44,849 nt of DNA from Dehalococcoidales bacterium (lineage in GTDB: Bacteria; Chloroflexota; Dehalococcoidia; Dehalococcoidales; RBG-16-60-22), in the NCBI GenBank assembly GCA_028712355.1, contig JAQTQH010000005.1, positions 1 through 44,849 of the forward strand, read 5' to 3'. The translations under genes and the position numbers were made by a program. The notes under the pieces were generated by a model that saw only the letters and a program-made list of their open reading frames with translations, was not told the DNA's origin and did no database searches. The first letter of the stretch is position 1. Every line of letters begins with the position of its first letter. Shown piece after piece: positions 7,290 through 33,498 of this stretch.

Positions 7290-8173
7290 AATACTATACT
7301 TACTTCCCCGGTTGTTCCTCGGAAAGCACCGCCCTCGGCATGAGCATTTCCCTTGAGGCGATTGCCGGGCCGCTGGACATGAAGCTGGCGGAGATGGAAG
7401 ACTGGACCTGCTGCGGTTCGACACCGTACGGCTCGCTGGACGAAATGGAATCACTGGTGATTGCCGCGCGCAACCTGGCGCTCGCCGAAAAGATTGGGCT
7501 GGATATGGTTACGCCGTGCAGTTCCTGCTATGTCACCCTGAACAAAGCCAATCATCATCTGAAAGAGCATCCGCAACTGATGGCGCAGGTCAATGAAGCG
7601 CTGGCGGTCGCTAAAATGCAGTACAAGGGCAGCGTTAAAGTCCGCCACATCGTTGATGTCCTTTATACTGATATTAAACCTGAATCTATTGCGGCCAAAG
7701 TAAAACAAAAACTTGCCGGTTTGAAAGTAGCCGCTTACTCCGGTTGCCAGCTCGTGCGGCCCGACTACGGCTTTGACCATGTGGAATTTCCTGACAAGCT
7801 GGATGAACTGGTCAGGTGTCTCGGCGCAGAGGCGGTTAACTTCCCGCTGAAATCACGGTGCTGCGGCAGTTCTTTGAGTATATCCGAGACGGACAAAGTG
7901 CTGGGCTTGATGGAGAAACTCTTCGCCAACGCCGCTGAGAACGGTGCTCAGTGCTTCACAACCCCGTGCCCCCTTTGCCAGACTAATTTGGATGCTTACC
8001 AGAGCCTGGTCAATGCGAAATTTGGTACTCATTATAACCTGCCTGTTTTCTTCATCTCGCAATTAATCGGGGTCGCCCTTGGGATGGATGAAAAATCGCT
8101 GGGGCTGGACAAAAATATCGTTTCTCCGCGGCCGGTTTTGCGGCAGTTAAGCGAGGTTAAAAGTGGAACCTAG
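7286..8173 (+). CDS. hdrB: Heterodisulfide reductase subunit B
   Basis: 295 aa with two CCG-type Cys-rich domains (CCGS..PCSSC and CCGSS..PCPLC). Confidence 0.85.
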   Translation: MKYYTYFPGCSSESTALGMSISLEAIAGPLDMKLAEMEDWTCCGSTPYGSLDEMESLVIAARNLALAEKIGLDMVTPCSSCYVTLNKANHHLKEHPQLMAQVNEALAVAKMQYKGSVKVRHIVDVLYTDIKPESIAAKVKQKLAGLKVAAYSGCQLVRPDYGFDHVEFPDKLDELVRCLGAEAVNFPLKSRCCGSSLSISETDKVLGLMEKLFANAAENGAQCFTTPCPLCQTNLDAYQSLVNAKFGTHYNLPVFFISQLIGVALGMDEKSLGLDKNIVSPRPVLRQLSEVKSGT

Positions 8174-12319: not shown

Positions 12320-13045
12320 CTAGACCGCCGTCGGGCAGAGCTTGACCTTGCCCCAGACCCCGATTTTTTCATCTTTGATGATAACAACTCCGCTCAGCCC
12401 CGGGATTTTCCCGGCAAATTCGAGTGCCGGGTCAATGTCTTCCGTAGTTTGCACACGGTTGGCAATCGCAGTTGCCGAGGCATCCGCCAGTATCGTTGAT
12501 TTGGCAATCGTGACTACAGCATCCGCCTTGCCGAAATTTATCGAATGTCCCACCGTTCCCGAAGAAGTACAGACGCCAAGCGGAGTATCCGCGGCGCTGA
12601 TTTCTACCCCGATTTTACCGGTGAGCGGAGATTTGCCGGCATAAATCCCCACCACCCTGGTTTTGAGGCTCTTTAGAAAAATTTCGCCGCCGTTTTCCAC
12701 GATAATCTCCGGGGTAAATTCCAGCAGGTCGCGCCCGATAAATTCGGCGATGGCTCCGGAAACTGCGGTCATCGGCCCCACACCCACCTGTGATGCCGCT
12801 TCCATCATCCGGCGGGCAATTTGGGGCGTGTCATCGGTTATGGGAATCGGTTCCAGGGTGGTCAGGAAGAGGGGATTCCTGGCGATGTACGTTTCCAGAA
12901 ACCCCCGGTATTTTTCGACCAGCTTATATGCCTTGCGCTCCAGATTACTGGCGGCGCGGATATACAGGTCGGTTTCCCTGACCGCAACCGTGAATGTGAC
13001 CAGGTCTTTGCCGGATATCCAGTTACGGTAGATTTTGGGCGGCAT
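12320..13045 (-). CDS. UPF0280 / COG2122 ApbE-like protein (MA1715-type, sulfide assimilation associated)
   Basis: Sequence ..FTVAVRETDLYI..GVGPMTAVSGAIAEF..IVENGGEIF..SSGTVGHSINFGKADAVV. I chose the start at 13045 (MPPKIYRNW), 4 nt after the upstream stop. The tracked start at 13165 would overlap the upstream gene by 116 nt. Confidence 0.65.
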   Translation of the reverse strand: MPPKIYRNWISGKDLVTFTVAVRETDLYIRAASNLERKAYKLVEKYRGFLETYIARNPLFLTTLEPIPITDDTPQIARRMMEAASQVGVGPMTAVSGAIAEFIGRDLLEFTPEIIVENGGEIFLKSLKTRVVGIYAGKSPLTGKIGVEISAADTPLGVCTSSGTVGHSINFGKADAVVTIAKSTILADASATAIANRVQTTEDIDPALEFAGKIPGLSGVVIIKDEKIGVWGKVKLCPTAV

Positions 13046-13049
13046 GGTA

Positions 13050-13466
13050 CTAAAAGTGTACTTCCATCGCATGGGGCGGGCAGGCTTTAATACACAGCCC
13101 GCAGGCGACACACTTCTCATTATCGAAGATGACTTTCCGGCTGCCCGGTTCGATACAGAAGGCATTCGCCGGGCAGATGGTGACGCAGGCGCCGCACTGG
13201 GTGCAGCGATCTTCGTTGCGGATGATGTCCTGGCTCAATGATTGTATTTTGACGCCCGTCTTGACCAGGAAATTGATGCCCTTATCGTAGTCTTCCTGAG
13301 TGCCGGTAAGTTCGATGACCATCAAACCTTCCTGCTCCGGACCGATAGATGCTTTGAGGATATTAAACTCCAGGGCGTAGTCACGCGCCAGGTGCCAGAT
13401 GATGGGGCGGTCGATAGTCCGCCGGGGGAAATGTAGAACGATTCTCTTTGAAACAGCAGCCATCAT
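13050..13466 (-). CDS. NIL-domain / 2x[4Fe-4S] ferredoxin protein (MA1822-type)
   Basis: 138 aa. An N-terminal NIL-like domain is followed by CTQCGACVTICP and CVACGLCIKACP. Confidence 0.8.
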   Translation of the reverse strand: MMAAVSKRIVLHFPRRTIDRPIIWHLARDYALEFNILKASIGPEQEGLMVIELTGTQEDYDKGINFLVKTGVKIQSLSQDIIRNEDRCTQCGACVTICPANAFCIEPGSRKVIFDNEKCVACGLCIKACPPHAMEVHF

Positions 13467-13476
13467 CTCAACCTCC

Positions 13477-14685
13477 TCAATACTCCACCGGGCGTTCGTT
13501 GAGCGGTTTGAAGGTCACCTCGGAATCTACTCCCGGCAGCGGTGCCACCGATTCGGTCAGCAGGAAATCGCCTTTTTGGATCCATCCTTTAAGTATACCG
13601 GAGATTTCCACCGCCCGCGAGTAACTGGAAAGGGAGGCCGTGGGGACATTTTTTCCCTGTACTTTGATTGTGCCGCTTTTCAATTCGGCATAGCTGACTT
13701 CTCCCAGGATATCCGGTTTCATCTTGGGGTAGGCATCTGAATAATCGACCACCGCCGCGAATATCTCGCCATCGGTCGCAGCAGCGTGGCGTAAAACTTC
13801 CTCATCGAGAACGGGGATAGGTACGCCGATTCCCACACCGAGGCTGCAGCCATAGCCGAGCATGCTTGTGCCGACCAGCCAGTGCGGACTCATCTGTTTG
13901 AGGTCGCCGATGACTGCTAAGGTACCGGCGCCTCGCTTGGGTACACCGTTATCGCCGCGTAGTACATCCGGGTTATGCTGGGTGCCGTGCCAGGCAACAT
14001 AGCCGATGCCGCCGCCGAGGAAAATGCGGGTACCAATGCCGATAGTCCGGTAATAGGGGTCTTTTAAAAGCGGCGAAAGCTGTCCTGCCGAACTATAGGT
14101 AGCATTGCCCAGTCTCGGTTTGAGCATTCCCATGTAGGTATAAATCAGCTTATCCGAGAGGTTCACCGCGACATTATAGTTCTGATAGGCATTTCTGATG
14201 TTGAGCAGGGTTGCCTGGTTGAGGTCTTTAATATTAACCCAGGTATCCAGCTTCTTGCGCGGGTAACAATCGGTGCCGTAAGCCGTCGCCGAAAGCCTGA
14301 CGTCTTTGCCCGCTACCAGTTCTTCGATGACGTGACCGCCGCCGTAGTTGAACTCGCCGGGGCGAATACGGTTGCGGGGATCATCATCGGGCAGGGCGTT
14401 CGACCCGATAAAAAGATCGGCCGCTGCAAAACCGGGGTAAGCGAGCACGTCATTCAGGTAAGCCTTACCGCCACCCAGTTTAAGGCGCGGTTTGGTATGA
14501 CCGATATTCAGATAGGCACCGGAGGAACACATTACGCCGAAGGTGCCGGTAGTTACCACATCAACTTCTTGCGCAGCGCGGGTAATGCCTTTCGTCCGCG
14601 CGATATCTATTATTTCTTCCGCCGTCACGACGACGGCTTTACCTTCTTTTATCCTTTTATTAATTTCTGCAATTGTTTTAGCCAT
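13477..14685 (-). CDS. COG1900 / DUF39 homocysteine biosynthesis protein (MA1821-type, without CBS domains)
   Basis: 402 aa. The N-terminus KTIAEINKRIKEGKAVVVTAEE..VDVVTTGTFG is characteristic of DUF39. It sits immediately upstream of the NIL-ferredoxin gene. Confidence 0.75.
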   Translation of the reverse strand: MAKTIAEINKRIKEGKAVVVTAEEIIDIARTKGITRAAQEVDVVTTGTFGVMCSSGAYLNIGHTKPRLKLGGGKAYLNDVLAYPGFAAADLFIGSNALPDDDPRNRIRPGEFNYGGGHVIEELVAGKDVRLSATAYGTDCYPRKKLDTWVNIKDLNQATLLNIRNAYQNYNVAVNLSDKLIYTYMGMLKPRLGNATYSSAGQLSPLLKDPYYRTIGIGTRIFLGGGIGYVAWHGTQHNPDVLRGDNGVPKRGAGTLAVIGDLKQMSPHWLVGTSMLGYGCSLGVGIGVPIPVLDEEVLRHAAATDGEIFAAVVDYSDAYPKMKPDILGEVSYAELKSGTIKVQGKNVPTASLSSYSRAVEISGILKGWIQKGDFLLTESVAPLPGVDSEVTFKPLNERPVEY

Positions 14686-14883: not shown

Positions 14884-17244
14884 ATGGATAAGAAAAGTCT
14901 GGAAGTCTTGGAGTTTCCCAAGGTAAAAGAAATCCTGGCGGAATTCACCTCTTTTTCTGCCAGCCGGGAGCTTGCCCTCGAGCTTCAACCGTTGACCAGT
15001 TACGAGACGGTGGTGCGGCTTCTGAGGCAATCTGCAGAGGCGCGGCTGCTGCTGGAGCTTGAGCCGGGATTCACCATCGGTGGTGTCTTCGATATTCGCC
15101 CGCTGGCAGCGATGGCGGCGCGGGAAAAGATACTTGAGACGCTTGACCTGCTTCAGGTACAGCAAGTACTGATTGCGAGCCGGCACCTGCGCGGTAATCT
15201 CGCCAGAGTTGCTTCGGATTTTCCCATGCTGTGGGAGATTGCGCAGGGCATTACAGAACTCGGGCAGATTGAGCGCAACATCAGTCACTGCATCGGGCTT
15301 ACCGGTGAGGTGCTCGATACCGCTTCGCCGCAACTGGCAACCGTACGCCGCAAACTCAATGACATGAAACAGCAGCTCATGGAACGTCTGGAGGCGTTCA
15401 TGGGTTCAGCAAAAGGGCAGAAGGTAGTCCAGGAAGCCATCATTACCGAAAGGGAAGGACGATATGTTATCCCGGTCAAAGTGGAAGCCCGCCGTGAGGT
15501 TAAGGGTATCGTCCACGACGTCTCCAATACCGGTGCTACCGTCTTTGTGGAGCCGTGGGCGACTGTCGAACTGGGCAATACACTGCGTGAGCTTTCCCGT
15601 GAAGAGCAGCGGGAAATAGAGCGCATCCTGGGCAGTCTTTCCGGCGAAATCGGCGAGCATGAGGGAGAAATCGTACAGAGCATCACACGTATTGCGGAAC
15701 TGGACCTGGCGCTGGCGAAAGCACGCTACGCCCGGCGCTTCCGCGCCAGTGAACCTAAAGTTACCGAATTTGATGGTAATACCTCCGGCGGGATTATACG
15801 GCTGGCGGAGGCAAGGCATCCGCTCCTTGCCGATAAAGCGGTGCCGCTTTCAGTGGAAATCGGGAGGGAATTTTCGGCGCTGATTATCACCGGACCTAAT
15901 ACCGGCGGCAAGACGGTGGCTTTAAAAACGGTGGGGTTGCTCAGTTTGATGGTGCAGTCCGGCTTGCCTATTCCAGCGCTGCCGGAAAGCCAAATGCCCG
16001 TTTTCGATGGCATTTTCGCAGACATCGGTGACGAGCAAAGTATTGAGCAGACTCTATCCACGTTCAGCTGGCACATGAACAACATTGCCCGCATTATTAA
16101 TCATGCCTCGCGGAAAAGCCTGGTGCTTCTCGACGAATTAGGTACGAGCACCGACCCCGCTGAGGGCTCCGCACTGGCACGCTCACTGCTGATGTATTTC
16201 CTCGCGCGCGGGGCATTGATAGTCGCCACTACCCACTTCAGCGACCTCAAGGCTTTTGCCCATACGACCAGAGGGATGCAAAATGCCTCACTGGACTTTG
16301 ACCCGGTTACGCTGGCGCCGACTTACCATTTGGTGCTCGGCATCCCCGGCGGCAGCAATGCCCTGGCAACGGCGGCGCGGCTGGGTCTGCCTGCCGAGAT
16401 TATTGATAATGCCCGCAGCATGCTGGCGAAAGGTACCCAGGAATTTGAAACCCTGCTTGCCGACCTGATAACGGAGAAGCATAAGATGGAGGATTTGAGT
16501 GCAACTCTGGCGCAGGAAAAGGCCGAAATAGAAAAGCGCCTTAGCGAACTGGAAAATGAATTCAAGCGGGTCAAATCGGAGGAAAGGCGCATCGTTCTGG
16601 AGACCCGCGACCGCGTCGTAAGTGAAGCCGCCGAACTGCATAAAGCGCTGCACGACGCGGAAGCCGATTTGCGTAAAGAAAAGTCACGTGAGAGGGTTGC
16701 TGAAACGCGCAAGGTGCTGGCGGCAATCCAGAAGCAATTGCAGGGAACAACCTGGAAACCAGCTCCCGGCGAAGAGATGGCGGAAGAAGCTGCCGCCCGA
16801 ATCGATGTCGGTAATACGGTCTGGGTTAAAGAAGCTGGTATTCATGGCACCGTCCTCGCGGTCAATGAAGATAAGCGGCAGGTGGAAGTGCAAATCGGGG
16901 CGGCGAAAATACGACTCGGACTGGACGGCGTGGAAAAAACGGCACCGCCAGAGGCCAAGATGTCTCCGCATTATACCGTTATCCAGCGACCGTCCGGCAG
17001 GATAGTCGCCCGTGAACTCGACCTGCGCGGCAAGCGGGCGGAAGCGATTGAGATGGAACTGGATACCTATTTGAACGATGCCGCCGTCGCCGGTTTGGGT
17101 GAGGTGCGCATCGTGCATGGCTACGGCACCGGCGCCGCCCGTAAGACTGTCCGCGAGCGGCTGGCGGGGCATCAACTGGTCAAGTCATTCCGCCCCGGGG
17201 AACGTGGCGAGGGCGGTGACGGCGTTACGGTGGTCAGATTATAG
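14884..17244 (+). CDS. mutS2: Endonuclease MutS2 (MutS ATPase core plus C-terminal Smr domain)
   Basis: 786 aa. Walker A is GPNTGGKT and the DELGTSTDP motif is present. A long coiled coil follows, then the C-terminal Smr domain (LDLRGKRAEEA..VRIVHGYGTG). Confidence 0.93.
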   Translation: MDKKSLEVLEFPKVKEILAEFTSFSASRELALELQPLTSYETVVRLLRQSAEARLLLELEPGFTIGGVFDIRPLAAMAAREKILETLDLLQVQQVLIASRHLRGNLARVASDFPMLWEIAQGITELGQIERNISHCIGLTGEVLDTASPQLATVRRKLNDMKQQLMERLEAFMGSAKGQKVVQEAIITEREGRYVIPVKVEARREVKGIVHDVSNTGATVFVEPWATVELGNTLRELSREEQREIERILGSLSGEIGEHEGEIVQSITRIAELDLALAKARYARRFRASEPKVTEFDGNTSGGIIRLAEARHPLLADKAVPLSVEIGREFSALIITGPNTGGKTVALKTVGLLSLMVQSGLPIPALPESQMPVFDGIFADIGDEQSIEQTLSTFSWHMNNIARIINHASRKSLVLLDELGTSTDPAEGSALARSLLMYFLARGALIVATTHFSDLKAFAHTTRGMQNASLDFDPVTLAPTYHLVLGIPGGSNALATAARLGLPAEIIDNARSMLAKGTQEFETLLADLITEKHKMEDLSATLAQEKAEIEKRLSELENEFKRVKSEERRIVLETRDRVVSEAAELHKALHDAEADLRKEKSRERVAETRKVLAAIQKQLQGTTWKPAPGEEMAEEAAARIDVGNTVWVKEAGIHGTVLAVNEDKRQVEVQIGAAKIRLGLDGVEKTAPPEAKMSPHYTVIQRPSGRIVARELDLRGKRAEAIEMELDTYLNDAAVAGLGEVRIVHGYGTGAARKTVRERLAGHQLVKSFRPGERGEGGDGVTVVRL

Positions 17245-17263: not shown

Positions 17264-18007
17264 ATGCTTGTAGCGAGAGATTTTGCCTTGACCCGCCATA
17301 AGATGCTGGCATACCTCGCGGCGTTGGCCGCGGATGACTCTTTTACAGCAACGCGCTACGTTCCCGCCGGAGCATTACTGCCGGGAATCAGAAAAATACT
17401 TGAGGACGCACCGGAACTCCTGTTGCCGGAAATATCAGAGCGAGTAATTGGTTCATTTAACGGCGCAGCGCTTTTCTGGGGTAACAGCAGGACATGCCTC
17501 GTCCTGCCGCCCTTTCCGATTGATAAAGCCGAATCTTCAAAAGGCTGCAATATTGCATCGCTGAACGTTCAACTAACCAGAGATTACAATATCGGTATAG
17601 TGCTTATCCGGCTGGGGGCTTACGCCATCGGACTCTGCCGCGGCGAAAACATTGTGAAAAGCAAAGTGGGGACGGGGCTGGTGCACGCCCGGCACCGTCA
17701 GGGCGGCTCTTCTTCTCACCGGTTTGAGCGCCACCGCAAGAAACAAATCGAATATTTCCTGACGAGGGTCTGCGAACACGTCAGGGAGATACTGGAATCG
17801 GAGGCAAAGACTATCGATTATTTTGTCTTCGGTGGTTCTAGCACGGCAATCCAGTTTTTGCAGGAACAATGTTCGTTTCTGGGGCAGTTTGAGAAACGCA
17901 GTCTGCTGCCTTTATTGACATTGCCGGAGCCACGGCAGGCGGTACTCGCCGAAGCCGTTGCGCGAGTCTGGTCGAGCCGGGTCATTGAATGGCGAACGGA
18001 AAACTAG
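17264..18007 (+). CDS. Vms1/VLRF1-like (eRF1-fold) putative peptidyl-tRNA hydrolase
   Basis: 247 aa, starting 20 nt after the mutS2 stop. The central segment IGIVLIRLGAYAIGLCRG..VHARHRQGGSSSHRFERHRKKQIEYF resembles the Vms1/ANKZF1 VLRF1 core (HRYTxRxKQGGSQS..RY). I recognised it from memory of that motif only. Confidence 0.45.
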   Translation: MLVARDFALTRHKMLAYLAALAADDSFTATRYVPAGALLPGIRKILEDAPELLLPEISERVIGSFNGAALFWGNSRTCLVLPPFPIDKAESSKGCNIASLNVQLTRDYNIGIVLIRLGAYAIGLCRGENIVKSKVGTGLVHARHRQGGSSSHRFERHRKKQIEYFLTRVCEHVREILESEAKTIDYFVFGGSSTAIQFLQEQCSFLGQFEKRSLLPLLTLPEPRQAVLAEAVARVWSSRVIEWRTEN

Positions 18008-21225: not shown

Positions 21226-21250
21226 AAGGAGGGGGCTTTCGCCCCCCCTT
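21226..21250 (-). terminator. Intrinsic terminator after tubulin-like gene A
   Basis: The minus strand has a GGGGGGGC-GAAA-GCCCCC(U)CC stem followed by UUCUUUUCU. Confidence 0.5.
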
Positions 21251-21276: not shown

Positions 21277-22455
21277 TTACGAGAGCAGGGAAGGAATATC
21301 TTTAGAGGCGTCTTCAATGACCTTGAGCTTGGTGGCGGTATCTTCCTGGCGCTTCCTCAACTCCGGGATAAGACTGGTAGATTTGGTGAAGTAGTTCCTG
21401 ACCTTTTCGACATCACTTAACTCGGACATGATTACGGTCACATCAACCGAACCCTTTTCGCGGGGGTAATCGCCGTTGCGGATGACGGCTTCCGGCGTCA
21501 CATCACGCATATAATCGCCGAGTTCCTTGACCATATCCATGTTCAACTCTTTGGCCGGACCGGAGACAAGGTACATCGCCCGGCGGGAATCCGCTGGATT
21601 GCACTTTAGGGAAAGTTCGCTCAGGGCTTCGTCCATTGCCTGGATACCCCTCTGGATTTCTGTGCCTTTCTTGCGGAAATCGCCTCCGGAAGTGGCAGGC
21701 AAACGGAAAAGCGGCACTTCAGAGCGTCCGTGACCTATTGCCGTCCAGCCGACGAGCGTCTGGATGATATCACCCGCATCCAGCAGCTTGGCGCCGATGT
21801 GTTTGGCTTTCTTTTCCTCACCGGCGCAGAGCAGGTTATAGAACGGTTCCACAATCAGGGAGTTTATTTTTGACAGGTTGAATTTGAGTGAAGAATCTTT
21901 ACGGACATAGCGCTGGTTGTCAAACAGGAAGACAGCATCGGCTACGGAATAGCAGGATTTAAGGCAGGTAGCCACGTTGTAGGCGGTCCGCTCTTCGGTG
22001 GTTTCTTCATGTTCAAAAGGCAGGACGATAAGATCATAGACCGGTTTGTCAATATAGCGTTGCTTCAATGCCTGGGTGATAACAGCAATTGCTCCGGAGC
22101 CCGTGCCGCCCGCCGCACTTGCCGCCAGCAGGAAGGCATCCGCCTCGAACAGTTTCTTGGCGGTTCGGATGGCATCTACCACTTTATCGCTGTCTTCTTT
22201 GGCGACCTCAGCGCCTACTTCGTTGATTTTACCCACGCCATGACCGCCAGTCTTTCTGCCGCCGATGAGGATTCGGTTACGGTAACTCTTGGGGATGACG
22301 GAGAGCCCGCTTAAATCAGCGGCATCGGTATTAACAGCAAAAGCTCCCATTATGATTTCCATGCCACGTCGGCTGTGGGCTCGATCGTTTAAACGGGCGA
22401 ATTCATCGACAATTCTGCCGCCGCATTGCCCCAGACCAACAACAACTAATTTCAT
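21277..22455 (-). CDS. Tubulin/FtsZ-superfamily GTPase, CetZ/tubulin-like (paralogue A)
   Basis: 392 aa. The T1 loop GLGQCGGRI is the tubulin/CetZ GQxGG type, not the FtsZ GGGGxN type. The T4 signature is AAGGTGSG and the T7-like segment is LLDAGDIIQTL. The C-terminal tail ends KDIPSLLS. Confidence 0.85.
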   Translation of the reverse strand: MKLVVVGLGQCGGRIVDEFARLNDRAHSRRGMEIIMGAFAVNTDAADLSGLSVIPKSYRNRILIGGRKTGGHGVGKINEVGAEVAKEDSDKVVDAIRTAKKLFEADAFLLAASAAGGTGSGAIAVITQALKQRYIDKPVYDLIVLPFEHEETTEERTAYNVATCLKSCYSVADAVFLFDNQRYVRKDSSLKFNLSKINSLIVEPFYNLLCAGEEKKAKHIGAKLLDAGDIIQTLVGWTAIGHGRSEVPLFRLPATSGGDFRKKGTEIQRGIQAMDEALSELSLKCNPADSRRAMYLVSGPAKELNMDMVKELGDYMRDVTPEAVIRNGDYPREKGSVDVTVIMSELSDVEKVRNYFTKSTSLIPELRKRQEDTATKLKVIEDASKDIPSLLS

Positions 22456-22498
22456 GCACCACCTCTAATCATAAATTTCATACTCTAATTTTGCCTTT

Positions 22499-22528
22499 AT
22501 TCTAAGCATACCTATTGAATATTGTCAA
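22499..22528 (-). promoter_or_regulatory. Sigma70-like promoter of tubulin-like gene A
   Basis: Minus strand TTGACA - 18 nt - TAGAAT, about 45 nt upstream of the ATG. Confidence 0.5.
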
Positions 22529-22607
22529 TTTAATCTTCAAAATCAAGCTTTAATCTCGGGGTTGATAGCTTGGTATAAAATATTTTCAATATAGGAATTT
22601 AGTCTTA

Positions 22608-22636
22608 TTGCAAAAGTACAGTGCGTGTAATAGAAT
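22608..22636 (+). promoter_or_regulatory. Sigma70-like promoter of the 719-aa repeat protein gene
   Basis: TTGCAA - 17 nt - TAGAAT, about 45 nt upstream of the GTG at 22682. Confidence 0.45.
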
Positions 22637-22681
22637 TATGGCGCAACCTTAAGAAGGCTCGTAAGGAAAAAGGTAAAGGCA

Positions 22682-24841
22682 GTGTCTCCCGAAACATTAG
22701 AAAATTTGGAAGGCAATATCGGGGAATTTGAAAAGGCCGTCGCGCGGGCGGAAAAGTTGAACCGCGCCGCCAAAGAGGCGTCTGAAGCATCGGCGCGGGC
22801 GGCTCAGGATGCGGCACTCCGTGCGGAGAAGATAAGCCGGGAAGCCAAGGAGGCTGCGGAAGACGCAGCCAGGTCTGCCAGTGAAGCAGCTACCCGTGCG
22901 GAAGGAGTGGCGAAAGAAGCCCGCAAAGCAGCGGAAGCATCCATGAAGGCAGCCCAGGAAGTGGTGCAGCAGGCAGAGAAAATAAGTCGGGAATCCAGGG
23001 AAGCTGCCGAAGCCACGATAAAAAACGCCCGGGAAGCCATTGCTAAAGCAGAAGAAACCGCCCGCGTTCCCAAAGATACTGCGGAAACAGTAGCCCGGGC
23101 TTTTGATGAAGCTATCAAACGCGCTGAAAAAATGAGCCACGAGGCGATGGCGGCTGCGGAATCGTCGCTTACCGCTTCTCAAGAAGGATTAAGCCACGTT
23201 CAGGAAATGAGCCGGGAAGCTAGGGAAAGAGCGGAAGCTGCCAGAATGGCATCCCAAGAAATGTTAGAGAGAGCGGAGAACGCCAACCGGGAAGCGAGAG
23301 AGGCCACAGACATGGCGACTAAAATGACGCGGGAGACGCTGACTCGCGCCGAGCGGATGAGTAAGTCCGTTCGTGACGCCGCGGATGCGAACAGCCGTAC
23401 GGCGAGAGAGGTGGCGGCGCGCGCGGAAAAAATCAGCAACGAAGCTCGTGAGACTGCGGAAGGTTCGGCACGGGTTGCTCAGGAAACCGCTTCTCGCGCG
23501 GAGAACACCAGCAAAGTCGCTAAAGATATTGCGGATACCTCACTGAGAACGGCTCAGGAAGTACGAACACAGATTGAGGCCCTGGAACGGGCAGCGAAAG
23601 AACAGACGGAAGCATCCGCCCGGACTGTGCAACAGGCAATGCGAAAAGCCGATGAAATCAACCAGGAACTAAAAGTAAGCGCCGAAGCTTCCAACAGAGC
23701 GTATCAGGAAGCAACTGAAAAGGCAACCCGGTCGGCTCAGGAAGCGACCGAGACAATGATGAAGACCTCACAGGAGGCAGTCTCGCGTGCCGAGAAAATA
23801 GTCCAGGAATTTAATGAAACGGTAGCCACGATTCGTAAATCCTTTGAGGACGCTATCCGTCAGGCTCAACAGGCGAGCCAGGAAGCTAAGCAGACTTCAG
23901 AAATGTCTGCCAGAGCTTCTCAGGAAGCCATCGCGCGTATCGAGATAATCAATAAAGAGGCAAAGGAAGCCGCGGAAGCTTCTATCAAGGCATCTAATGA
24001 TGCGGCAGAACTGGCTATGAGAGCTTCTCAGGAAGCCATCGCGAAGGCGCAAATAACGGGCCGGGAATCACGAGCGGCGGCTGAGGCTGCCGCAAAAACG
24101 GCGGAAGAGGCAGCCCAGGCATCTCAGAAGGATTCACAGGCGGCAATCGCCCGTGTCGGAGAGATGATTGCCATGATGCAAAAAACCGCTCAGGATGCGG
24201 CGCAGGCGGTTAATGAAGCAACCGCTGCTGCCGTAAGGGCCTCCGAAGACTCGGTTAAGCAAATGGGAGACTTAAGCCGTCAATCTCGTGCCGCGGCAGA
24301 AAATTCGGCACAGGCGTCGCAACAGGCTGCGGATACCATGGCAAAATCGACCCGCGAATCTACGGAAGCCACAATTAAGGCGGTAACGGAAGCTACCGAA
24401 GCAGCCGCCAGAATTACCCGGGAGGCTGCCCGGCAATCGATCAATGCTTTTGAAAATGCCATTCGTACTATAGAAACGGCGGGCAACGCGGCGCATAACG
24501 CCGCAGAGACTTCATTACAATCCTTTATTAATATGCCAAATGACGCTCCGTCATTAATGGAGGCTTCGGTAGTTCAGAGTACTCCGCTCCTGGCTGCTCC
24601 CGATGATGAGGGGACGGAGATTCTGGAAGAAGAAATGACTCCGGAAGTAGACCGTGAAGAAAATGATGACGTCCCGGAAAAAGAGATTACTAAGACCGTG
24701 AAGGCAGAAAACAGCGGAAACAAGAAGGGGGGAGCAGCATCACGCAAAAAGATTGAAGCCCGGCTGGCGTTCCTTTCCAAGATGTATGAAGCAAAACAGG
24801 CAAATCAGGAGGAAGAAGATACCGAAGCAGAGGACGCCTGA
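22682..24841 (+). CDS. Large Ala/Glu/Arg-rich helical repeat protein (719 aa) with a 25-residue repeat array and an acidic C-terminal tail
   Basis: A long open frame with a GTG start after a purine-rich AAGGAAAAAGG. It has 13 consecutive in-phase 25-aa repeats (consensus about RAEKiSrEArEAAEaSxxxAqEaxx), then units of 22, 25, 25, 36, 36 and 36 aa, and a 104-aa non-repetitive tail. No signal peptide or TM segment is apparent. Confidence 0.7.
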   Translation: MSPETLENLEGNIGEFEKAVARAEKLNRAAKEASEASARAAQDAALRAEKISREAKEAAEDAARSASEAATRAEGVAKEARKAAEASMKAAQEVVQQAEKISRESREAAEATIKNAREAIAKAEETARVPKDTAETVARAFDEAIKRAEKMSHEAMAAAESSLTASQEGLSHVQEMSREARERAEAARMASQEMLERAENANREAREATDMATKMTRETLTRAERMSKSVRDAADANSRTAREVAARAEKISNEARETAEGSARVAQETASRAENTSKVAKDIADTSLRTAQEVRTQIEALERAAKEQTEASARTVQQAMRKADEINQELKVSAEASNRAYQEATEKATRSAQEATETMMKTSQEAVSRAEKIVQEFNETVATIRKSFEDAIRQAQQASQEAKQTSEMSARASQEAIARIEIINKEAKEAAEASIKASNDAAELAMRASQEAIAKAQITGRESRAAAEAAAKTAEEAAQASQKDSQAAIARVGEMIAMMQKTAQDAAQAVNEATAAAVRASEDSVKQMGDLSRQSRAAAENSAQASQQAADTMAKSTRESTEATIKAVTEATEAAARITREAARQSINAFENAIRTIETAGNAAHNAAETSLQSFINMPNDAPSLMEASVVQSTPLLAAPDDEGTEILEEEMTPEVDREENDDVPEKEITKTVKAENSGNKKGGAASRKKIEARLAFLSKMYEAKQANQEEEDTEAEDA

Positions 24842-24889
24842 GAAAACCGGGTTAATTCACCAATCGTAGAAAATGAGGGAAAACCACCT

Positions 24890-24918
24890 TGACATTTAAG
24901 TAGGTACACCATATACTT
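24890..24918 (+). promoter_or_regulatory. Near-consensus sigma70 promoter of the 171-aa gene
   Basis: TTGACA - 17 nt - TATACT, about 48 nt upstream of the GTG at 24967. Confidence 0.55.
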
Positions 24919-24966
24919 GCGCTTGAATAACACTAAAAATATTAAATAGTTTACAGGAGGTAAGGA

Positions 24967-25482
24967 GTGCCGAGTACATCAAAAGAACATGCCAAGAAAA
25001 GCGCCCCGGCGGAAGGGAAAGCAGCGCAGGCGATTGAAGAGCTCAAGGGACTGGCTGCTGGAGTTGAAGAACCCGCTTCCAATCCATTAGATGAAGTCCT
25101 GGGACAGGCGGAGCGGGCATATGCCGCTTACATGGAAGCGGAACGACAGGTCGCCCGGGCTTACCGCGAAAATGAACTGCGAGTTACCGGTGCTTATGGT
25201 AAAACCGAGCAGCAACTTCAGAAAGATTACGAGAAGGCGATAACCCAAGCATTGCAAGCGCGGAACGAAGCAATCGAGCAGGCAATGCGCAATCGAGAGG
25301 ACACCATCCAGCATGCGGAATCCGATTTCAGGATTGCCCGAGAAGAGGCGGAAAAGGCTTATGAGACGGCAACGTCAGAAGCCATAATGTCGCGCCAGGA
25401 AGGCATTGAGAAAGCCCAGAAATCCCGCGATGATACTATTGCGCAGGCATGGGCGATTTATTCCAAGATGATGTCGCGGTAA
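24967..25482 (+). CDS. Small helical protein (171 aa), hypothetical
   Basis: GTG start directly after AGGAGGTAAGGA. The sequence is predicted helical and E/A/R/Q-rich, with an internal duplication (EKAITQALQARNEAIEQA.. / EKAYETATSEAIMSRQEGIEKA..). Confidence 0.6.
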   Translation: MPSTSKEHAKKSAPAEGKAAQAIEELKGLAAGVEEPASNPLDEVLGQAERAYAAYMEAERQVARAYRENELRVTGAYGKTEQQLQKDYEKAITQALQARNEAIEQAMRNREDTIQHAESDFRIAREEAEKAYETATSEAIMSRQEGIEKAQKSRDDTIAQAWAIYSKMMSR

Positions 25483-25519
25483 TTAAATACTTGCCTTAGC
25501 GCTCCAGAGATAGAACTGT

Positions 25520-25578
25520 AACAAACGTCCCCGCTTTGTTCTGGGATCTGCCGGGATAGCAAAGCGAGGACGTTTGTT
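25520..25578. terminator. Long-stem hairpin between convergent genes (bidirectional terminator candidate)
   Basis: AACAAACGTCCCCGCTTTG (25520-25538) pairs with CAAAGCGAGGACGTTTGTT (25560-25578) with one mismatch. T-rich sequence follows on the plus strand. Confidence 0.5.
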
Positions 25579-25583
25579 TATTC

Positions 25584-26759
25584 TTATAGCAGAGATGGGA
25601 TATCGTGAATGGTAACGTCGATGTCTTTCTGGCGGCTGGCGATGCCTTCCTGCCGTTTCTTGAGCGCCGAGATAAGTGAAATTGCTTTGGTAAAGTAGTT
25701 CCGGATTTTTTCGACATCAATTAGCTCGGAGAGAATCACGGTAACATCAAAAGACCCTCGCTCACGGGGGTAATCACCGCTCCGGATAACTGCTTCCGGC
25801 GCCATGCTCTTGAGGTAGGTGCCCAGTTCTTTGACAAGATCCATATTTATTTCTTTGCCGGGGGCTGAAATCAGGTACATGGCGCGTTTGCAATCCGTGG
25901 GATTGCACTTCAGGGAAAGATTGCTGATTGCCTGGTCCAGCGCGCGCGTACCTTTTTGAGTGTCGGTAGCTTTGTCCCGGAAATCGCGCTTTTCTCCGAA
26001 GAAGCTCTTGAAAAAGGAACTCTCCGACCGCCCGAAGCCAAGGGTCGTCCAGCCAACCAGCGTCTGGATGATATCACCGGCGTCCAGCATCTTGGCGCCG
26101 ATATGCTTGGGGTCCTTCTCTTCACCGGCGCAGAGGAGGTTGAAGAACGGCTCGACGATGATGTGGTTAATCTTTGAGAGATTGCCCAGTATCGGAGCGT
26201 CCTTCATGGCGAAGCGCTGATTATCTACCAGAAAGATAGCATCAGCCACCAGGTAGCTTGACTTGAGACAGGTAGCCACATTGTAGATGGTGCGGTCTTC
26301 TGTGATTTCCTCGTGCTCAAAAGGCAGGACAATCAGATTGTAGACCGGTTTATCAATATAGCGCTCTTTTATCTGCTGGGTCATTACCGGTATAGAACCG
26401 GAACCGGTGCCACCGCCCGCGGATGCGCAGAGCAGAAAAGCGTCGGTTTCCGCGAAGCGCTTGGCCATACGGATGGTTTCGATGACCTTATCTGCATCCT
26501 CGCGGGCGACCTCGGTGCCGAGTTCATTTATTTTGCCCACGCCATGTCCACCGGTTTTACGGCTGCCGATTAGAATGCGGTGCTCGTAATCAGGGCGTAT
26601 CGCCGTCAGTCCACTTAAATCCGCGACATCAGTATTGACCGCGTAAGACCCGGTGATAATATCCAGGTTGCGGAAAGTATGCGCCCGCGCATTCAAACGG
26701 GCGAATTCATCAGCGATTCTACCGCCGCACTGTCCCAGACCAACAACAATCAGTTTCAT
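25584..26759 (-). CDS. Tubulin/FtsZ-superfamily GTPase, CetZ/tubulin-like (paralogue B)
   Basis: 391 aa, colinear with paralogue A and roughly two-thirds identical by eye. It has GLGQCGGRI, GGGTGSG and MLDAGDIIQTL motifs. The C-terminus is HDIPSLL. Confidence 0.85.
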   Translation of the reverse strand: MKLIVVGLGQCGGRIADEFARLNARAHTFRNLDIITGSYAVNTDVADLSGLTAIRPDYEHRILIGSRKTGGHGVGKINELGTEVAREDADKVIETIRMAKRFAETDAFLLCASAGGGTGSGSIPVMTQQIKERYIDKPVYNLIVLPFEHEEITEDRTIYNVATCLKSSYLVADAIFLVDNQRFAMKDAPILGNLSKINHIIVEPFFNLLCAGEEKDPKHIGAKMLDAGDIIQTLVGWTTLGFGRSESSFFKSFFGEKRDFRDKATDTQKGTRALDQAISNLSLKCNPTDCKRAMYLISAPGKEINMDLVKELGTYLKSMAPEAVIRSGDYPRERGSFDVTVILSELIDVEKIRNYFTKAISLISALKKRQEGIASRQKDIDVTIHDIPSLL

Positions 26760-26788
26760 CCTTCACCTTATGATAGCAGAGTTGTGTT

Positions 26789-26818
26789 ATTTTACGCATC
26801 TAAAGGAGAGTATGTCAA
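26789..26818 (-). promoter_or_regulatory. Sigma70-like promoter of tubulin-like gene B
   Basis: Minus strand TTGACA - 18 nt - TAAAAT, about 30 nt upstream of the ATG. The architecture matches the promoter of gene A. Confidence 0.5.

Positions 26819-31005: not shown

Positions 31006-31006
<1 letters not shown>
30428..31006 (-). CDS. pth: Peptidyl-tRNA hydrolase
   Basis: 192 aa. MKLIVGLGNPG..NRHNIGF..HDDLDLPLGKIR..GGHKG is the Pth signature. The start overlaps the ligA stop (TAATG). Confidence 0.93.

Positions 31007-33498
<2,492 letters not shown>

What the first reader, a model, noticed from the sequence alone, without database searches (positions are those of the whole stretch)
21277..26818. 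Four-gene module: two CetZ/tubulin-type GTPase paralogues bracketing two helical-repeat proteins in a bacterium
Two colinear paralogues (392 and 391 aa, roughly two-thirds identical by eye) carry the tubulin/CetZ-type T1 loop GLGQCGG, not the FtsZ GGGGxN. They also carry a tubulin-type GGTGSG T4 signature and a T7-like xDxxD segment (LLDAGDIIQTL), so they look polymerisation- and GTPase-competent. CetZ-type proteins are known as archaeal cell-shape cytoskeleton, yet every housekeeping gene in this window is bacterial (rny, recX, NAD-ligA, pth, mutS2, rsmE). Between the paralogues sit a 719-aa 25-residue-repeat protein, divergent from paralogue A, and a 171-aa helical protein, convergent with paralogue B. 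I hypothesise a tubulin-family filament system with its own scaffold or regulator proteins. It may take over division or shape functions if canonical ftsZ and murein genes are missing elsewhere in the genome.
Basis: partly seen in the sequence, partly recalled or inferred. Interest (0 to 1): 0.85.

Follow-up and report, generated by a model that had tools for sequence, protein, structure and literature searches.

The report
Bacterial CetZ-like tubulin pair with coiled-coil partners
A wall-less group of bacteria (Dehalococcoidales) carries a conserved four-gene cassette encoding two relatives of the archaeal cell-shape tubulin CetZ plus two unusual rod-like helical proteins; it is most likely a shape-controlling cytoskeleton that works beside, not instead of, the normal division protein FtsZ.

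Summary
The window encodes two colinear paralogues of 392 and 391 aa, 69% identical without gaps. Both carry Pfam Tubulin plus CetZ_C domains. Their best sequence and fold matches are the Haloferax CetZ1 and CetZ2 crystal structures, and both fall far below the FtsZ cutoff.

Between them lie a 719-aa protein made of about 24 copies of a 25-residue repeat and a 171-aa protein predicted as one 130-residue helix with 11-residue periodicity.

The contig is bacterial, from Dehalococcoidales (Chloroflexota). The same four genes, in the same order and orientation, occur in 57 of 80 species-level genomes sampled. Nine more loci are cut by contig ends. Basal lineages have a single copy and no helical-protein genes.

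The literature already records CetZ-like sequences in Dehalococcoidia (Santana-Molina 2023). It also shows that Dehalococcoidales lack murein genes but keep ftsA and ftsZ. So "takes over division" is unlikely.

In D. mccartyi, a tubulin-like protein and a neighbouring hypothetical protein are abundant in disc-shaped cells and low or undetected in barrel-shaped cells.

Best reading: a CetZ-type, GTP-driven submembrane cytoskeleton with dedicated coiled-coil partners that shapes wall-less, S-layered cells. The family in Dehalococcoidia is already recorded. The conserved paralogue pair plus coiled-coil module appears undescribed in the literature I could search.

The parts
21277..22455 (-). tubA: CetZ-like tubulin-superfamily GTPase, 392 aa. 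T1 is GLGQCGG, T4 is AGGTGSG, the T7 acidic residues are D226/D229, and the C-terminal tail is KDIPSLLS.
   Evidence: ORF. Pfam Tubulin 4.7e-33 and CetZ_C 2.5e-17. PDB 4b46 (CetZ1) E 1.2e-44 over the full length. AF2 pLDDT 92.3, and the Foldseek top hits are CetZ1/CetZ2/CetZ.
21229..21248 (-). Intrinsic-terminator-like hairpin (GGGGGGGCGAAAGCCCCCTC followed by a T-rich run) immediately after the tubA stop codon.
22499..22528 (-). Sigma-70-like promoter site upstream of tubA (TTGACA-18-TAGAAT, 11 of 12 matches).
   Evidence: sequence
22608..22636 (+). Weaker promoter-like site upstream of the repeat-protein gene (TTGCAA-17-TAGAAT, 9 of 12 matches) in the 226-bp divergent intergenic region.
22682..24841 (+). 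rep719: 719-aa acidic (pI 5.0) Ala/Glu-rich protein. Its layout is a conserved N-terminal motif (aa 1-25), about 24 x 25-aa repeats (aa 26-620), an acidic linker (aa 621-683), a basic patch plus conserved helix KKIEARLAFLSKMYEAK (aa 684-705), and an acidic tail.
22757..24541 (+). The 25-residue (75-nt) repeat array within rep719. Charge and hydrophobic periodicity is 3.58 residues (25/7).
   Evidence: Autocorrelation, register table, Fourier analysis, DNA repeat family D1. A best lag of 25 is kept in 60 of 61 orthologues.
24731..24796 (+). Conserved C-terminal docking-type helix of rep719. The consensus across orthologues is K(I/M)EARLE(S/F)L(A/S)(K/R)MYE(A/T)KK.
24889..24917 (+). Sigma-70-like promoter site upstream of hel171 (TTGACA-17-TATACT, 11 of 12 matches).
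24967..25482 (+). hel171: 171-aa protein with a disordered N-terminus (about 39 aa) followed by one continuous helix (aa 40-170). It has 11-residue periodicity (3.66 residues per turn). The conserved core is PLDEV..QAERAYAAYM.AERQVA.AY and the conserved C-terminus is RD.TI.QAW.IYSK.
25520..25578 (.). 19-bp inverted repeat (95% complementary) between the convergent hel171 and tubB genes; a candidate bidirectional terminator.
   Evidence: I3; RNA fold -35.7 kcal/mol, z -3.9
25584..26759 (-). tubB: CetZ-like paralogue, 391 aa. T1 is GLGQCGG, T4 is GGGTGSG, the T7 acidic residues are D226/D229, the M-loop carries SFFKSFF, and the tail is HDIPSLL.
26789..26818 (-). Sigma-70-like promoter site upstream of tubB (TTGACA-18-TAAAAT, 11 of 12 matches) in the gap-tubB intergenic region.

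Best explanation
The module encodes a CetZ-family cytoskeleton of a wall-less Dehalococcoidales bacterium.

Shown: two paralogous tubulin-superfamily GTPases with the CetZ fold. Both have intact GTP-binding loops and an intact T7 catalytic aspartate, so both should bind GTP and polymerise head-to-tail as CetZ1 does. Both end in an invariant KDIPSLL peptide. They differ from each other mainly in the M-loop and in the outward-facing C-terminal helix H11.

Shown: two conserved, cytoplasmic, all-helical proteins with non-heptad periodicities are encoded between them and co-occur with the duplication. One has 25/7 periodicity, the other 11/3.

Inferred: A and B form GTP-dependent filaments, mixed or parallel, under the cytoplasmic membrane. 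The hydrophobic M-loop tip and the C-terminal peptide mediate membrane or partner contact, as the equivalent elements do in CetZ1. The long rod protein (repeat region about 90 nm if it is one helix) and the roughly 20-nm hendecad helix would bind through their conserved terminal motifs to the paralogue-specific H11 surfaces or to the tail. They would bundle, space or anchor the filaments.

Inferred function: control of cell shape and envelope (S-layer/membrane) organisation in cells without peptidoglycan. The system works alongside the retained FtsA/FtsZ divisome rather than replacing it.
For: Family identity:
- Pfam Tubulin plus CetZ_C, both above threshold.
- 32.5% identity to HvCetZ1, E 4e-44 over about 370 aa, against only short local hits to FtsZ.
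- AF2 pLDDT 92.3, with CetZ1/CetZ2/CetZ as the top three Foldseek hits.
- D229 aligns with CetZ1 E218, the T7 residue whose mutation blocks CetZ1 function.

Selection:
- Orthologues are 72-79% identical across species-level genomes, as conserved as the adjacent GAPDH and enolase at 70-77%.
- 186 of 392 positions are at least 90% conserved in both paralogues.

Linkage:
- 57 of 80 loci have tubB-hel171-rep719-tubA in identical order and orientation. Nine more are cut by contig ends and 3 lack only hel171. Single-copy loci have no helical-protein genes.
- The A/B duplication lies inside Dehalococcoidales (B clade bootstrap 100).

Partner features:
- The 25-residue and 11-residue periodicities are kept in 60/61 and 56/57 orthologues, although sequence identity is only 34-50%.
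- The terminal motifs are conserved.
- hel171 is predicted as one 130-residue helix.

Paralogue-specific surfaces: A/B differences concentrate in the M-loop (75% of positions) and H11 (63%), while the tail is identical.

Biology:
- Dehalococcoidales lack dcw/murein genes, have an S-layer-like wall, and keep ftsA-ftsZ (PMC10608941).
[quoted passage not shown] The nearby hypothetical btf_0548 was highly abundant there and not quantifiable in the co-cultures, whose cells are barrel-shaped (PMC8163811).
Against: - No experiment on this protein family exists. Polymerisation, membrane binding and any contact with the two helical proteins are inferred.
- The D. mccartyi correlation also includes FtsZ itself, and I could not verify that btf_0551 or btf_0548 are orthologues of these genes.
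- Each of the four genes has its own promoter-like site. They are a gene cluster, not a demonstrated operon.
- Some lineages manage with a single copy and no helical partners (L023, L060, L070-73, L079, L080), so the partners are not essential to the GTPase.
- The 25-residue repeat spans about 3.7 nm as a helix. That does not match the roughly 4.2-nm CetZ subunit repeat, so a simple one-repeat-per-subunit ruler model does not fit.
- The T4 signature in the A orthologues begins with Ala at the position of the FtsZ84 glycine (AGGTGSG). This may lower GTPase activity.
Confidence: 0.55

Rival explanations
1. Division accessory. The CetZ-like pair is a second, FtsZ-like ring system that helps constrict wall-less cells. 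This would resemble the FtsZ1/FtsZ2 split in archaea. The KDIPSLL tail would tether it to FtsA or SepF, mimicking the FtsZ C-terminal peptide (D-I-P-x-F-L; motif from my own knowledge of E. coli and B. subtilis FtsZ).
For: The C-terminal K-D-I-P-S-L-L is nearly invariant in both paralogues, and a related (D/E/G)(I/L)P.L(L) motif runs through the whole Dehalococcoidia clade. FtsA is retained in Dehalococcoidales. In D. mccartyi the tubulin-like protein and FtsZ change abundance together.
Against: The fold and sequence are CetZ-type, and CetZ1 has no division role described. The genes are not near ftsA/ftsZ: no FtsZ hit was found within +/-10 kb in any of the 88 loci. A canonical FtsZ is already present. 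Archaeal CetZ1 also has a short hydrophobic C-terminal motif (LESLF), so the tail is not specific to FtsZ.
Confidence: 0.2
2. DNA-segregation or mobile-element system of the TubZ/PhuZ type. The tubulin-like filaments would push or pull a plasmid, prophage or chromosome, with the helical proteins acting as adaptors.
For: Santana-Molina et al. place TubZ near CetZ-like sequences. One more distant Dehalococcoidia CetZ-like subgroup sits beside a phage terminase gene, and another sits in a transposase-rich region. TubY is a coiled-coil partner of TubZ.
Against: This module lies in a stable housekeeping context (eno-hgd-gap ... rsmE/dnaX) in dozens of species. No TubR-like DNA-binding gene is present, and the intergenic regions contain no iteron or centromere repeats. 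Pfam Tubulin_2 scores below threshold, 17 bits against 27. Composition does not differ from the flanks.
Confidence: 0.04
3. Metabolic scaffold. The filaments would organise glycolytic or other enzymes, given the conserved position directly downstream of enolase and GAPDH.
For: The eno-(hgd)-gap-cetZ order is conserved even in single-copy lineages. Brown & Duggin note biosynthetic genes near archaeal cetZ and speculate on enzyme scaffolding.
Against: tubB has its own strong promoter-like site. Synteny with housekeeping genes is common without any functional link. Nothing in the helical proteins suggests enzyme binding.
Confidence: 0.05
4. Artefact: an archaeal or chimeric contig, or decaying gene copies.
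For: None found.
Against: The same arrangement occurs in at least 57 independently assembled genomes, including contigs of 2.0 and 2.3 Mb. All four reading frames are intact and under strong conservation. GC content is uniform.
Confidence: 0.01

Closest known systems
Archaeal CetZ1/CetZ2 (Haloferax volcanii; PDB 4B46, 4B45) and Methanosaeta CetZ (3ZID)
   Same: Same domain pair (Tubulin plus CetZ_C). These are the best sequence match (E 1e-44, about 32% identity) and the best fold match (TM about 0.8-0.9). Shared features include a tubulin-like T1 (GxGQxGG), the T4 GGTGSG signature and an acidic T7 residue. A long M-loop with a hydrophobic tip, a C-terminal helix and a short hydrophobic tail motif are also shared. 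The host cells are wall-less, S-layered and can be discoid. Several paralogues occur per genome.
   Different: The host is a bacterium. The sequences form their own clade (NJ bootstrap 96) rather than nesting in CetZ1 or CetZ2. The tail motif is DIPSLL, not LESLF. No dedicated coiled-coil partners are described in the CetZ neighbourhood survey read here. The neighbourhood here is glycolytic and housekeeping rather than F420, purine or pilus genes.
CetZ-like sequences of Chloroflexota-Dehalococcoidia noted by Santana-Molina et al. 2023 (PMC9871819)
   Same: Almost certainly the same protein family. It is reported as bacterial CetZ-like with a CetZ_C HMM match.
   Different: That paper mentions them in one sentence as 'sparse paraphyletic groups'. 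It gives no description of the paralogue pair, the coiled-coil genes or their breadth. Here at least 526 species-level genomes hold a relative, and the sequences sampled form one clade.
BtubA/BtubB/BtubC of Prosthecobacter
   Same: A bacterial pair of tubulin-superfamily paralogues, encoded together with a non-GTPase helical-repeat accessory protein, in a lineage that also keeps FtsZ.
   Different: Btub proteins are true tubulins (Tubulin_C domain; obligate heterodimer; mini-microtubules) and BtubC is a TPR protein. Here the fold is CetZ-type. The A/B interfaces are barely diverged, with only 6 fixed differences, and the partners are long coiled-coil-type helices.
FtsZ with its coiled-coil or spectrin-like regulators (EzrA, ZapA/ZapB, SepF) and its C-terminal peptide
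   Same: A tubulin-superfamily filament plus helical modulators. The extreme C-terminal short motif (DIPSLL here, DIPxFL in FtsZ) is likely a docking peptide.
   Different: These proteins are not FtsZ: TIGR00065 scores 64 bits against a 295 cutoff, there is no FtsZ_C domain, and the genes are not in a dcw or ftsA context. The helical proteins show no detectable homology to EzrA, Zap or SepF.
Bacterial coiled-coil-rich cytoskeletal proteins with non-heptad repeats (Scy, FilP, crescentin)
   Same: Long, acidic, Ala/Glu-rich helices with unusual periodicity and a presumed structural role. There is a faint NCBIfam hit of hel171 to Scy.
   Different: The Scy hit is 14 bits against a cutoff of 1040, so there is no homology. 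The periodicities here are 25/7 and 11/3 (Scy has a 51-residue repeat, from my own knowledge). The link to a tubulin-family GTPase is new.
TubZ-TubR-tubC(-TubY) and phage PhuZ
   Same: Bacterial tubulin-superfamily filaments outside division. TubY is a coiled-coil partner.
   Different: There is no DNA-binding adaptor, no centromere repeats and no mobile-element context. The sequence and fold are closer to CetZ.

Membership tests
Tubulin/FtsZ superfamily | GTPase domain (PF00091) with the T1 glycine loop and the T4 signature (G/A)GGTG(S/T)G | tested here: met
   PF00091 scores 115.5 and 110.2 bits against a 33 cutoff. GLGQCGG and AGGTGSG/GGGTGSG are read directly from the sequences.
Tubulin/FtsZ superfamily | T7 loop acidic residue that completes the neighbouring subunit's active site | tested here: met
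   D226/D229 in both paralogues align to D215/E218 of HvCetZ1 (alignment). They are at least 90% conserved in the A and B orthologues.
Tubulin/FtsZ superfamily | Two-domain fold (Rossmann-like N-domain, H7, C-domain) | tested here: met
   AF2 pLDDT 92.3, pTM 0.90. There are 1143 PDB matches at E<=1e-3, all of the top 50 being CetZ or FtsZ.
Tubulin/FtsZ superfamily | GTP-dependent polymerisation | not testable with these tools
   Needs purified protein.
CetZ family | CetZ-type C-terminal domain (PF21011) | tested here: met
   63.3 and 59.9 bits against a 21.6 cutoff. The domain is also precomputed on all 120 listed relatives.
CetZ family | Closest solved relatives are CetZ rather than FtsZ or tubulin | tested here: met
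   By sequence: 4b46 1.2e-44, 4b45 5.5e-28, 3zid 2.8e-13, and the best FtsZ 3.9e-10. By fold: ranks 1-4 are CetZ.
CetZ family | Phylogenetic placement inside the canonical (euryarchaeal) CetZ clade | tested here: inconclusive
   In the NJ tree with 100 bootstraps, the Dehalococcoidia sequences form their own clade (96). CetZ-like plus CetZ separates from FtsZ (100). The archaeal side is unsupported as a clade (19), so sister or nested placement is unresolved. Santana-Molina et al. call them 'CetZ-like', outside canonical CetZ.
CetZ family | Archaea-specific distribution, as stated by Brown & Duggin 2023 | tested here: not met
   All 80 best loci are Dehalococcoidales/Dehalococcoidia genomes, and the window carries bacterial housekeeping genes.
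CetZ family | Role in cell-shape control | not testable with these tools
   There is only a correlative proteomic hint in D. mccartyi.
FtsZ | Equivalog-level match to TIGR00065 and an FtsZ_C domain | tested here: not met
   63.7 and 56.5 bits against a 295.2 cutoff, N-domain only. There is no FtsZ_C hit.
FtsZ | Location in a dcw or ftsA context | tested here: not met
   Neighbours are gap, eno and rsmE or dnaX. There is no FtsZ hit in 1.27 Mb of related loci.
TubZ / FtsZl (Tubulin_2, PF13809) | Family HMM match, with a TubR/centromere or membrane-remodelling partner genes | tested here: not met
   PF13809 scores 17 bits against 27. There are no intergenic iterons.
Eukaryote-type tubulin / BtubAB | Tubulin_C domain (PF03953) and tubulin-level similarity | tested here: not met
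   There is no PF03953 hit. BtubB and tubulin chains match only at E about 1e-6 over about 100 residues.
Scy/FilP-type coiled-coil cytoskeletal proteins (for rep719 and hel171) | Family HMM match | tested here: not met
   NF041483 Scy scores 14.3 bits against 1040 for hel171 and gives nothing for rep719. No Pfam family is above threshold. PDB gives only compositional hits.

The most novel reading that the evidence does not exclude
The two CetZ-like paralogues co-assemble into a submembrane lattice whose geometry is set by the two non-heptad rod proteins. The 25-mer-repeat rod would act as a variable-length spacer or cross-linker (517-911 aa among species) and the hendecad helix as a short connector. 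This would be the first tubulin-family, shape-determining cytoskeleton in Bacteria. It would explain how peptidoglycan-free Dehalococcoidales hold a discoid shape, and it would represent an ancient archaea-bacteria exchange or a common inheritance of the CetZ system.
Probability: 0.3. Interest if true: 0.8.

Novelty: new variant of a known kind. Interest (0 to 1): 0.66.

Why it matters
The review read here (Brown & Duggin 2023) describes CetZ as archaea-specific. Here a CetZ-type protein is close to a core gene of a large, environmentally important bacterial order, with relatives in at least 526 species-level genomes, and it is as conserved as glycolytic enzymes.

These bacteria have lost peptidoglycan and, in Dehalococcoides, carry an archaeal-style S-layer-like wall. 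How they keep their shape is unknown.

The conserved cassette gives concrete candidates for that machinery. It also supplies candidate CetZ-family partner proteins; the CetZ neighbourhood survey read here reports none of this type.

This makes two questions testable. How does a tubulin-family filament shape a wall-less cell? What do the M-loop, H11 helix and C-terminal peptide of CetZ bind?

It also bears on tubulin-superfamily evolution, namely transfer versus inheritance of CetZ between domains. D. mccartyi and Dehalogenimonas are cultivable bioremediation organisms in which expression can be followed.

Tried and rejected
1. Exact look-up of tubA in the assembly index found nothing on record.
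2. Homologue searches of the 5.8-billion-protein set for hel171 and rep719 were uninformative. hel171 gave only 6 hits. rep719 gave only 2 compositional hits, both to histidine kinases, because low-complexity words swamped the candidate list. Orthologues had to be taken from the genome loci by tblastn instead.
3. PDB sequence searches with rep719 and hel171 gave only designed helical bundles, alpha-actinin spectrin repeats and similar hits at E >= 8e-4. I treat these as compositional.
4. Ruler hypothesis, one 25-residue repeat per filament subunit: rejected on arithmetic. 25 x 0.15 nm is about 3.75 nm, against the 4.2-nm CetZ1 longitudinal repeat quoted.
5. Obligate alternating A/B heterodimer like alpha/beta-tubulin: not supported. 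Both paralogues keep the T7 acidic residue and only 6 positions are fixed differences. Mixed or parallel filaments remain possible.
6. TubZRC-like segregation: no iterons and no DNA-binding gene.
7. I looked for ftsZ in the window and in 88 related loci with a B. subtilis FtsZ query and found none. Co-occurrence with FtsZ therefore rests on the literature, not on my own test.
8. Rfam and tRNA scans of the window were empty.
9. The supplement of PMC8163811, needed to identify btf_0548, is not held.
10. Only neighbour-joining was available for the tree. No maximum-likelihood software was to hand.

Full report
**1. Observation.**

- tubA, 21277-22455 on the minus strand, 392 aa.
- A 719-aa protein, 22682-24841 on the plus strand.
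- A 171-aa protein, 24967-25482 on the plus strand.
- tubB, 25584-26759 on the minus strand, 391 aa.

The two GTPases align end to end without a gap at 69% identity. Both pass the Pfam gathering thresholds for the Tubulin/FtsZ GTPase domain (115 and 110 bits against 33). Both also pass for the CetZ-specific C-terminal domain PF21011 (63 and 60 bits against 21.6).

The NCBIfam FtsZ equivalog model scores only 64 and 56 bits against a cutoff of 295, and only over the N-domain. In the alignment to Haloferax CetZ1, D229 of both paralogues falls on E218, the T7 catalytic residue.

The 25-residue repeat of the 719-aa protein is real. Autocorrelation peaks at lags 25, 50, 75 and 100, with sub-peaks at 11, 14 and 36. 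A 75-nt DNA repeat family confirms it.

**2. Whose genome.**

The rest of the window is an ordinary bacterial chromosome segment. It encodes RNase Y, RecX, RecA, SurE, Hdr-like proteins, MutS2, an Actinobacteria/Chloroflexi-type VLRF1 release factor, LemA, an M48 protease and RsmE. It also encodes GAPDH, an HGD-D protein, enolase, Pth, NAD-dependent LigA, CoA-transferases, acyl-CoA dehydrogenases and CobS. Composition is uniform.

A scan of one genome per species found relatives of tubA in at least 526 stretches. The best 80 are mostly labelled Dehalococcoidales, Dehalococcoidia or Chloroflexota MAGs. A few carry other labels (Deltaproteobacteria, Acidobacteriaceae, 'uncultured bacterium'), which I take to be mislabelled bins because they share the same synteny. 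The set includes contigs of 2.0 and 2.3 Mb. The closest relative is 94% identical and has identical neighbours. The contig is therefore neither archaeal nor chimeric.

**3. What the GTPases are.**

Sequence search of the PDB puts H. volcanii CetZ1 (4B46, E 1.2e-44, full length) first. CetZ2 (4B45, 5.5e-28) and Methanosaeta CetZ (3ZID) follow, ahead of any FtsZ or tubulin. BLASTP gives 32.5% identity to CetZ1 over about 370 residues.

An AlphaFold2 model of tubA is confident (pLDDT 92.3, pTM 0.90). The only disordered stretch is 253-257, in the M-loop. A long C-terminal helix spans 350-384 and an eight-residue tail follows. Foldseek ranks CetZ1, CetZ2 and CetZ first, then FtsZ structures.

I built a neighbour-joining tree from several sources:
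- The window proteins.
- Orthologues from the loci.
- 73 full-length representatives from an exhaustive HMMER scan.
- The two Haloferax CetZ sequences.
- Three FtsZ outgroups.

The tree separates everything CetZ-like from FtsZ (bootstrap 100). It unites all Dehalococcoidia sequences in one clade (bootstrap 96). The named members of that clade are Dehalococcoidia. The other side holds Halobacteria CetZ and Nitrososphaerales proteins. Whether the bacterial clade is sister to archaeal CetZ or nested within it is unresolved, because the archaeal side has bootstrap 19. I therefore call the proteins CetZ-like: they meet the domain, sequence and fold criteria, but canonical-clade membership is not shown.

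**4. Conservation of the module.**

The arrangement among the 80 loci is as follows:
- 57 carry tubB, hel171, rep719 and tubA in the same order and orientation as the window, usually preceded by eno-(hgd)-gap.
- 9 more show rep719-tubA and then run off the contig.
- 3 have tubB-rep-tubA without the small gene.
- 2 have a different tandem pair without helical genes.
- About 9 have a single copy in the arrangement gap-cetZ-dnaX-ybaB-recR, with no helical-protein gene.

In the tree the single-copy forms branch near the base. The A and B orthologue groups are distinct (B bootstrap 100, A 66). The duplication and the arrival of the two helical genes therefore go together inside Dehalococcoidales.

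The GTPases are 72-79% identical between species, the same range as the neighbouring GAPDH and enolase. hel171 is about 50% identical and rep719 34-46%. More distant Dehalococcoidia CetZ-like subfamilies sit in unrelated contexts: a nuo operon, a terminase gene and a transposase-rich island.

**5. The two helical proteins.**

rep719 is acidic (pI 5.0; 24% Ala, 15% Glu) and has no Cys or Trp. It has no signal peptide or hydrophobic segment that I could see. Its layout:
- A conserved N-terminal motif, consensus N-I-x-D-F-E-K-A-V-A-R-A-E.
- About 24 repeats of 25 residues.
- A variable acidic linker.
- A basic patch.
- A strongly conserved helix, K(I/M)EARLE(S/F)L(A/S)(K/R)MYE(A/T)KK.
- A charged tail.

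Charge and hydrophobicity in the repeat array oscillate with a period of 3.58 residues (25/7), with Ala in most core positions. Orthologues vary from 517 to 911 aa, but 60 of 61 keep the 25-residue lag.

hel171 has an 11-residue periodicity (3.66 residues per turn), kept in 56 of 57 orthologues. It has an almost invariant core, PLDEV..QAERAYAAYM.AERQVA.AY, and a conserved C-terminus. AlphaFold2 predicts a disordered first 39 residues and then a single uninterrupted helix from 40 to 170 at pLDDT above 90.

Neither protein matches any Pfam, NCBIfam or PDB family beyond compositional noise. As single helices the rep719 repeat region would be about 90 nm long and hel171 about 20 nm. This is arithmetic at 0.15 nm per residue, and therefore inference.

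**6. Features that suggest how the parts connect.**

Both paralogues end in K-D-I-P-S-L-L, which is nearly invariant in 130-odd orthologues. A related (D/E/G)(I/L)P.L(L) ending runs through the whole Dehalococcoidia clade. It resembles two known elements:
- The FtsZ C-terminal docking peptide (DIPxFL; my own knowledge).
- The LESLF ending of CetZ1, whose mutation abolishes rod formation.

The M-loop carries a hydrophobic cluster, PLFRLP in A and SFFKSFF in B. This parallels the amphipathic LLSRL tip of the CetZ1 M-loop, which is also essential.

Differences between A and B are not spread evenly:
- 75% of M-loop positions differ.
- 63% of positions in the C-terminal helix H11 differ, although H11 is well conserved within each orthologue group.
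- About 20% of positions differ in the N-domain and the T7 region.
- The tail is identical.

Only six positions are strictly fixed differences. The polymerisation surfaces therefore look interchangeable, and the outward-facing H11 looks paralogue-specific. That is the pattern expected if A and B can share filaments but recruit different partners.

**7. Expression signals.**

Near-consensus sigma-70-type sites (11 of 12 matches) lie upstream of tubB, tubA and hel171, and a weaker one lies upstream of rep719. A GC-rich hairpin with a T-run follows tubA. A 19-bp inverted repeat lies between the convergent hel171 and tubB genes (-35.7 kcal/mol, z -3.9). These are pattern matches only. They suggest separately transcribed genes in a cluster rather than one operon.

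**8. Comparison with what is known.**
- Brown & Duggin (2023) describe CetZ as archaea-specific.
- Santana-Molina et al. [quoted passage not shown] The family's presence in these bacteria is therefore already on record.
- A Chloroflexota genome survey reports that Dehalococcoidales and SAR202 lack the dcw/murein genes but keep mraZ-mraW-ftsA-ftsZ. It also reports that D. mccartyi has an S-layer-like wall.
[quoted passage not shown] A nearby hypothetical protein (btf_0548) was highly abundant there and not quantifiable in the co-cultures, whose cells are barrel-shaped.

I found no paper describing the paralogue pair, the two helical proteins or their linkage.

**9. Interpretation.**

The most likely reading is a CetZ-type cytoskeleton that helps shape or organise the envelope of peptidoglycan-free cells. 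It has two isoforms and two dedicated rod-like partners, and it acts next to a retained FtsA/FtsZ divisome. I put this at about 0.55. Protein identity is near certain; function and contacts are inferred.

The rivals:
- The main rival is a division-associated role through the FtsZ-like tail (about 0.2).
- Segregation of DNA or mobile elements is unlikely, given the stable housekeeping context and the absence of an adaptor gene or centromere repeats.
- Metabolic scaffolding is also unlikely. It rests only on the conserved position next to enolase and GAPDH, and tubB has its own promoter-like site.
- An assembly artefact is excluded.

The link to missing murein is.

**10. Verdict.**

The finding is real and well observed. 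The protein family is already recorded in this bacterial class, so it is not categorically new. The conserved A/B pair with two non-heptad helical partners appears undescribed in the literature I could search, as does its near-universal presence in a large bacterial order. Together they give an experimentally tractable handle on CetZ partners and on shape control in wall-less bacteria. Novelty: new variant of a known kind. Interest: 0.66.

Noticed in passing
window 17264-18007 (+), just after mutS2 at 14884-17244: The ORF matches the 'Actinobacteria/Chloroflexi VLRF1 release factor' family (PF18859, 3e-28). It sits directly downstream of MutS2/Smr, a pairing suggestive of a ribosome-rescue module. 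It also supports the Chloroflexota origin of the window.
   Followed up: no
window 13477-14685 (-) with small ORFs at 13050-13466 and 12320-13165: A HcyBio (PF01837, 2.6e-148) homocysteine-biosynthesis sulfur-incorporation enzyme, the type best known from methanogens. This is another archaeal-flavoured trait in this bacterium.
   Followed up: no
window 7286-10160 (+): A heterodisulfide-reductase-like pair: a CCG-domain protein and a 665-aa FAD/4Fe-4S HdrA-like protein. A 380-bp intergenic gap and a thioredoxin-reductase-like gene follow.
   Followed up: no
window 31006-33483 (-): The NAD-dependent DNA ligase is 825 aa, long for LigA. The HhH domain matches in two stretches, so there may be an insertion between the HhH and BRCT regions.
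   Followed up: no
L074 8764-11176 and L077 3076-5485: A different arrangement in two genomes labelled Deltaproteobacteria (probably mislabelled bins): gap, then a 43%-identical CetZ-like gene, then a 72%-identical one, then dnaX. There are no helical-protein genes. This is an independent second paralogue from another subfamily (clade with P0136/P0140).
   Followed up: partly
L083 842-3623, L084 2264-4996; L085/L086 7001-9305: More distant Dehalococcoidia CetZ-like subfamilies lie next to a phage-type large terminase gene (54%-identity group). Others lie inside a resolvase/TnpB/IS-rich island with a conserved 327-aa unknown gene downstream (36%-identity group). Some CetZ-like genes in this class may travel on mobile elements.
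   Followed up: partly
L023 8728-11179 (also L034): An A-type gene sits directly after gap, with tubB, hel171 and rep719 missing, although its closest relatives (L033, L063, L064) carry rep719 next to tubA (L033 and L064 the full module). This looks like a secondary deletion, perhaps by recombination between the paralogues.
   Followed up: no
tubA residue 115 (window about 22111-22113) and its A-type orthologues: The first glycine of the tubulin signature GGGTGSG is Ala in at least 90% of A orthologues and in most B orthologues. The window's tubB has Gly. This is the position of the E. coli ftsZ84 (G105S) and CetZ1 G108S mutations, so it may tune GTPase or polymer stability.
   Followed up: partly
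L069, L075, L076 (about 6.5-11.2 kb in each): One sublineage has tubB-rep-tubA with a shorter repeat protein (517-653 aa) and no hel171 gene. Only about 95 bp separate tubB from the repeat gene. The small helix protein is therefore dispensable or replaced there.
   Followed up: partly
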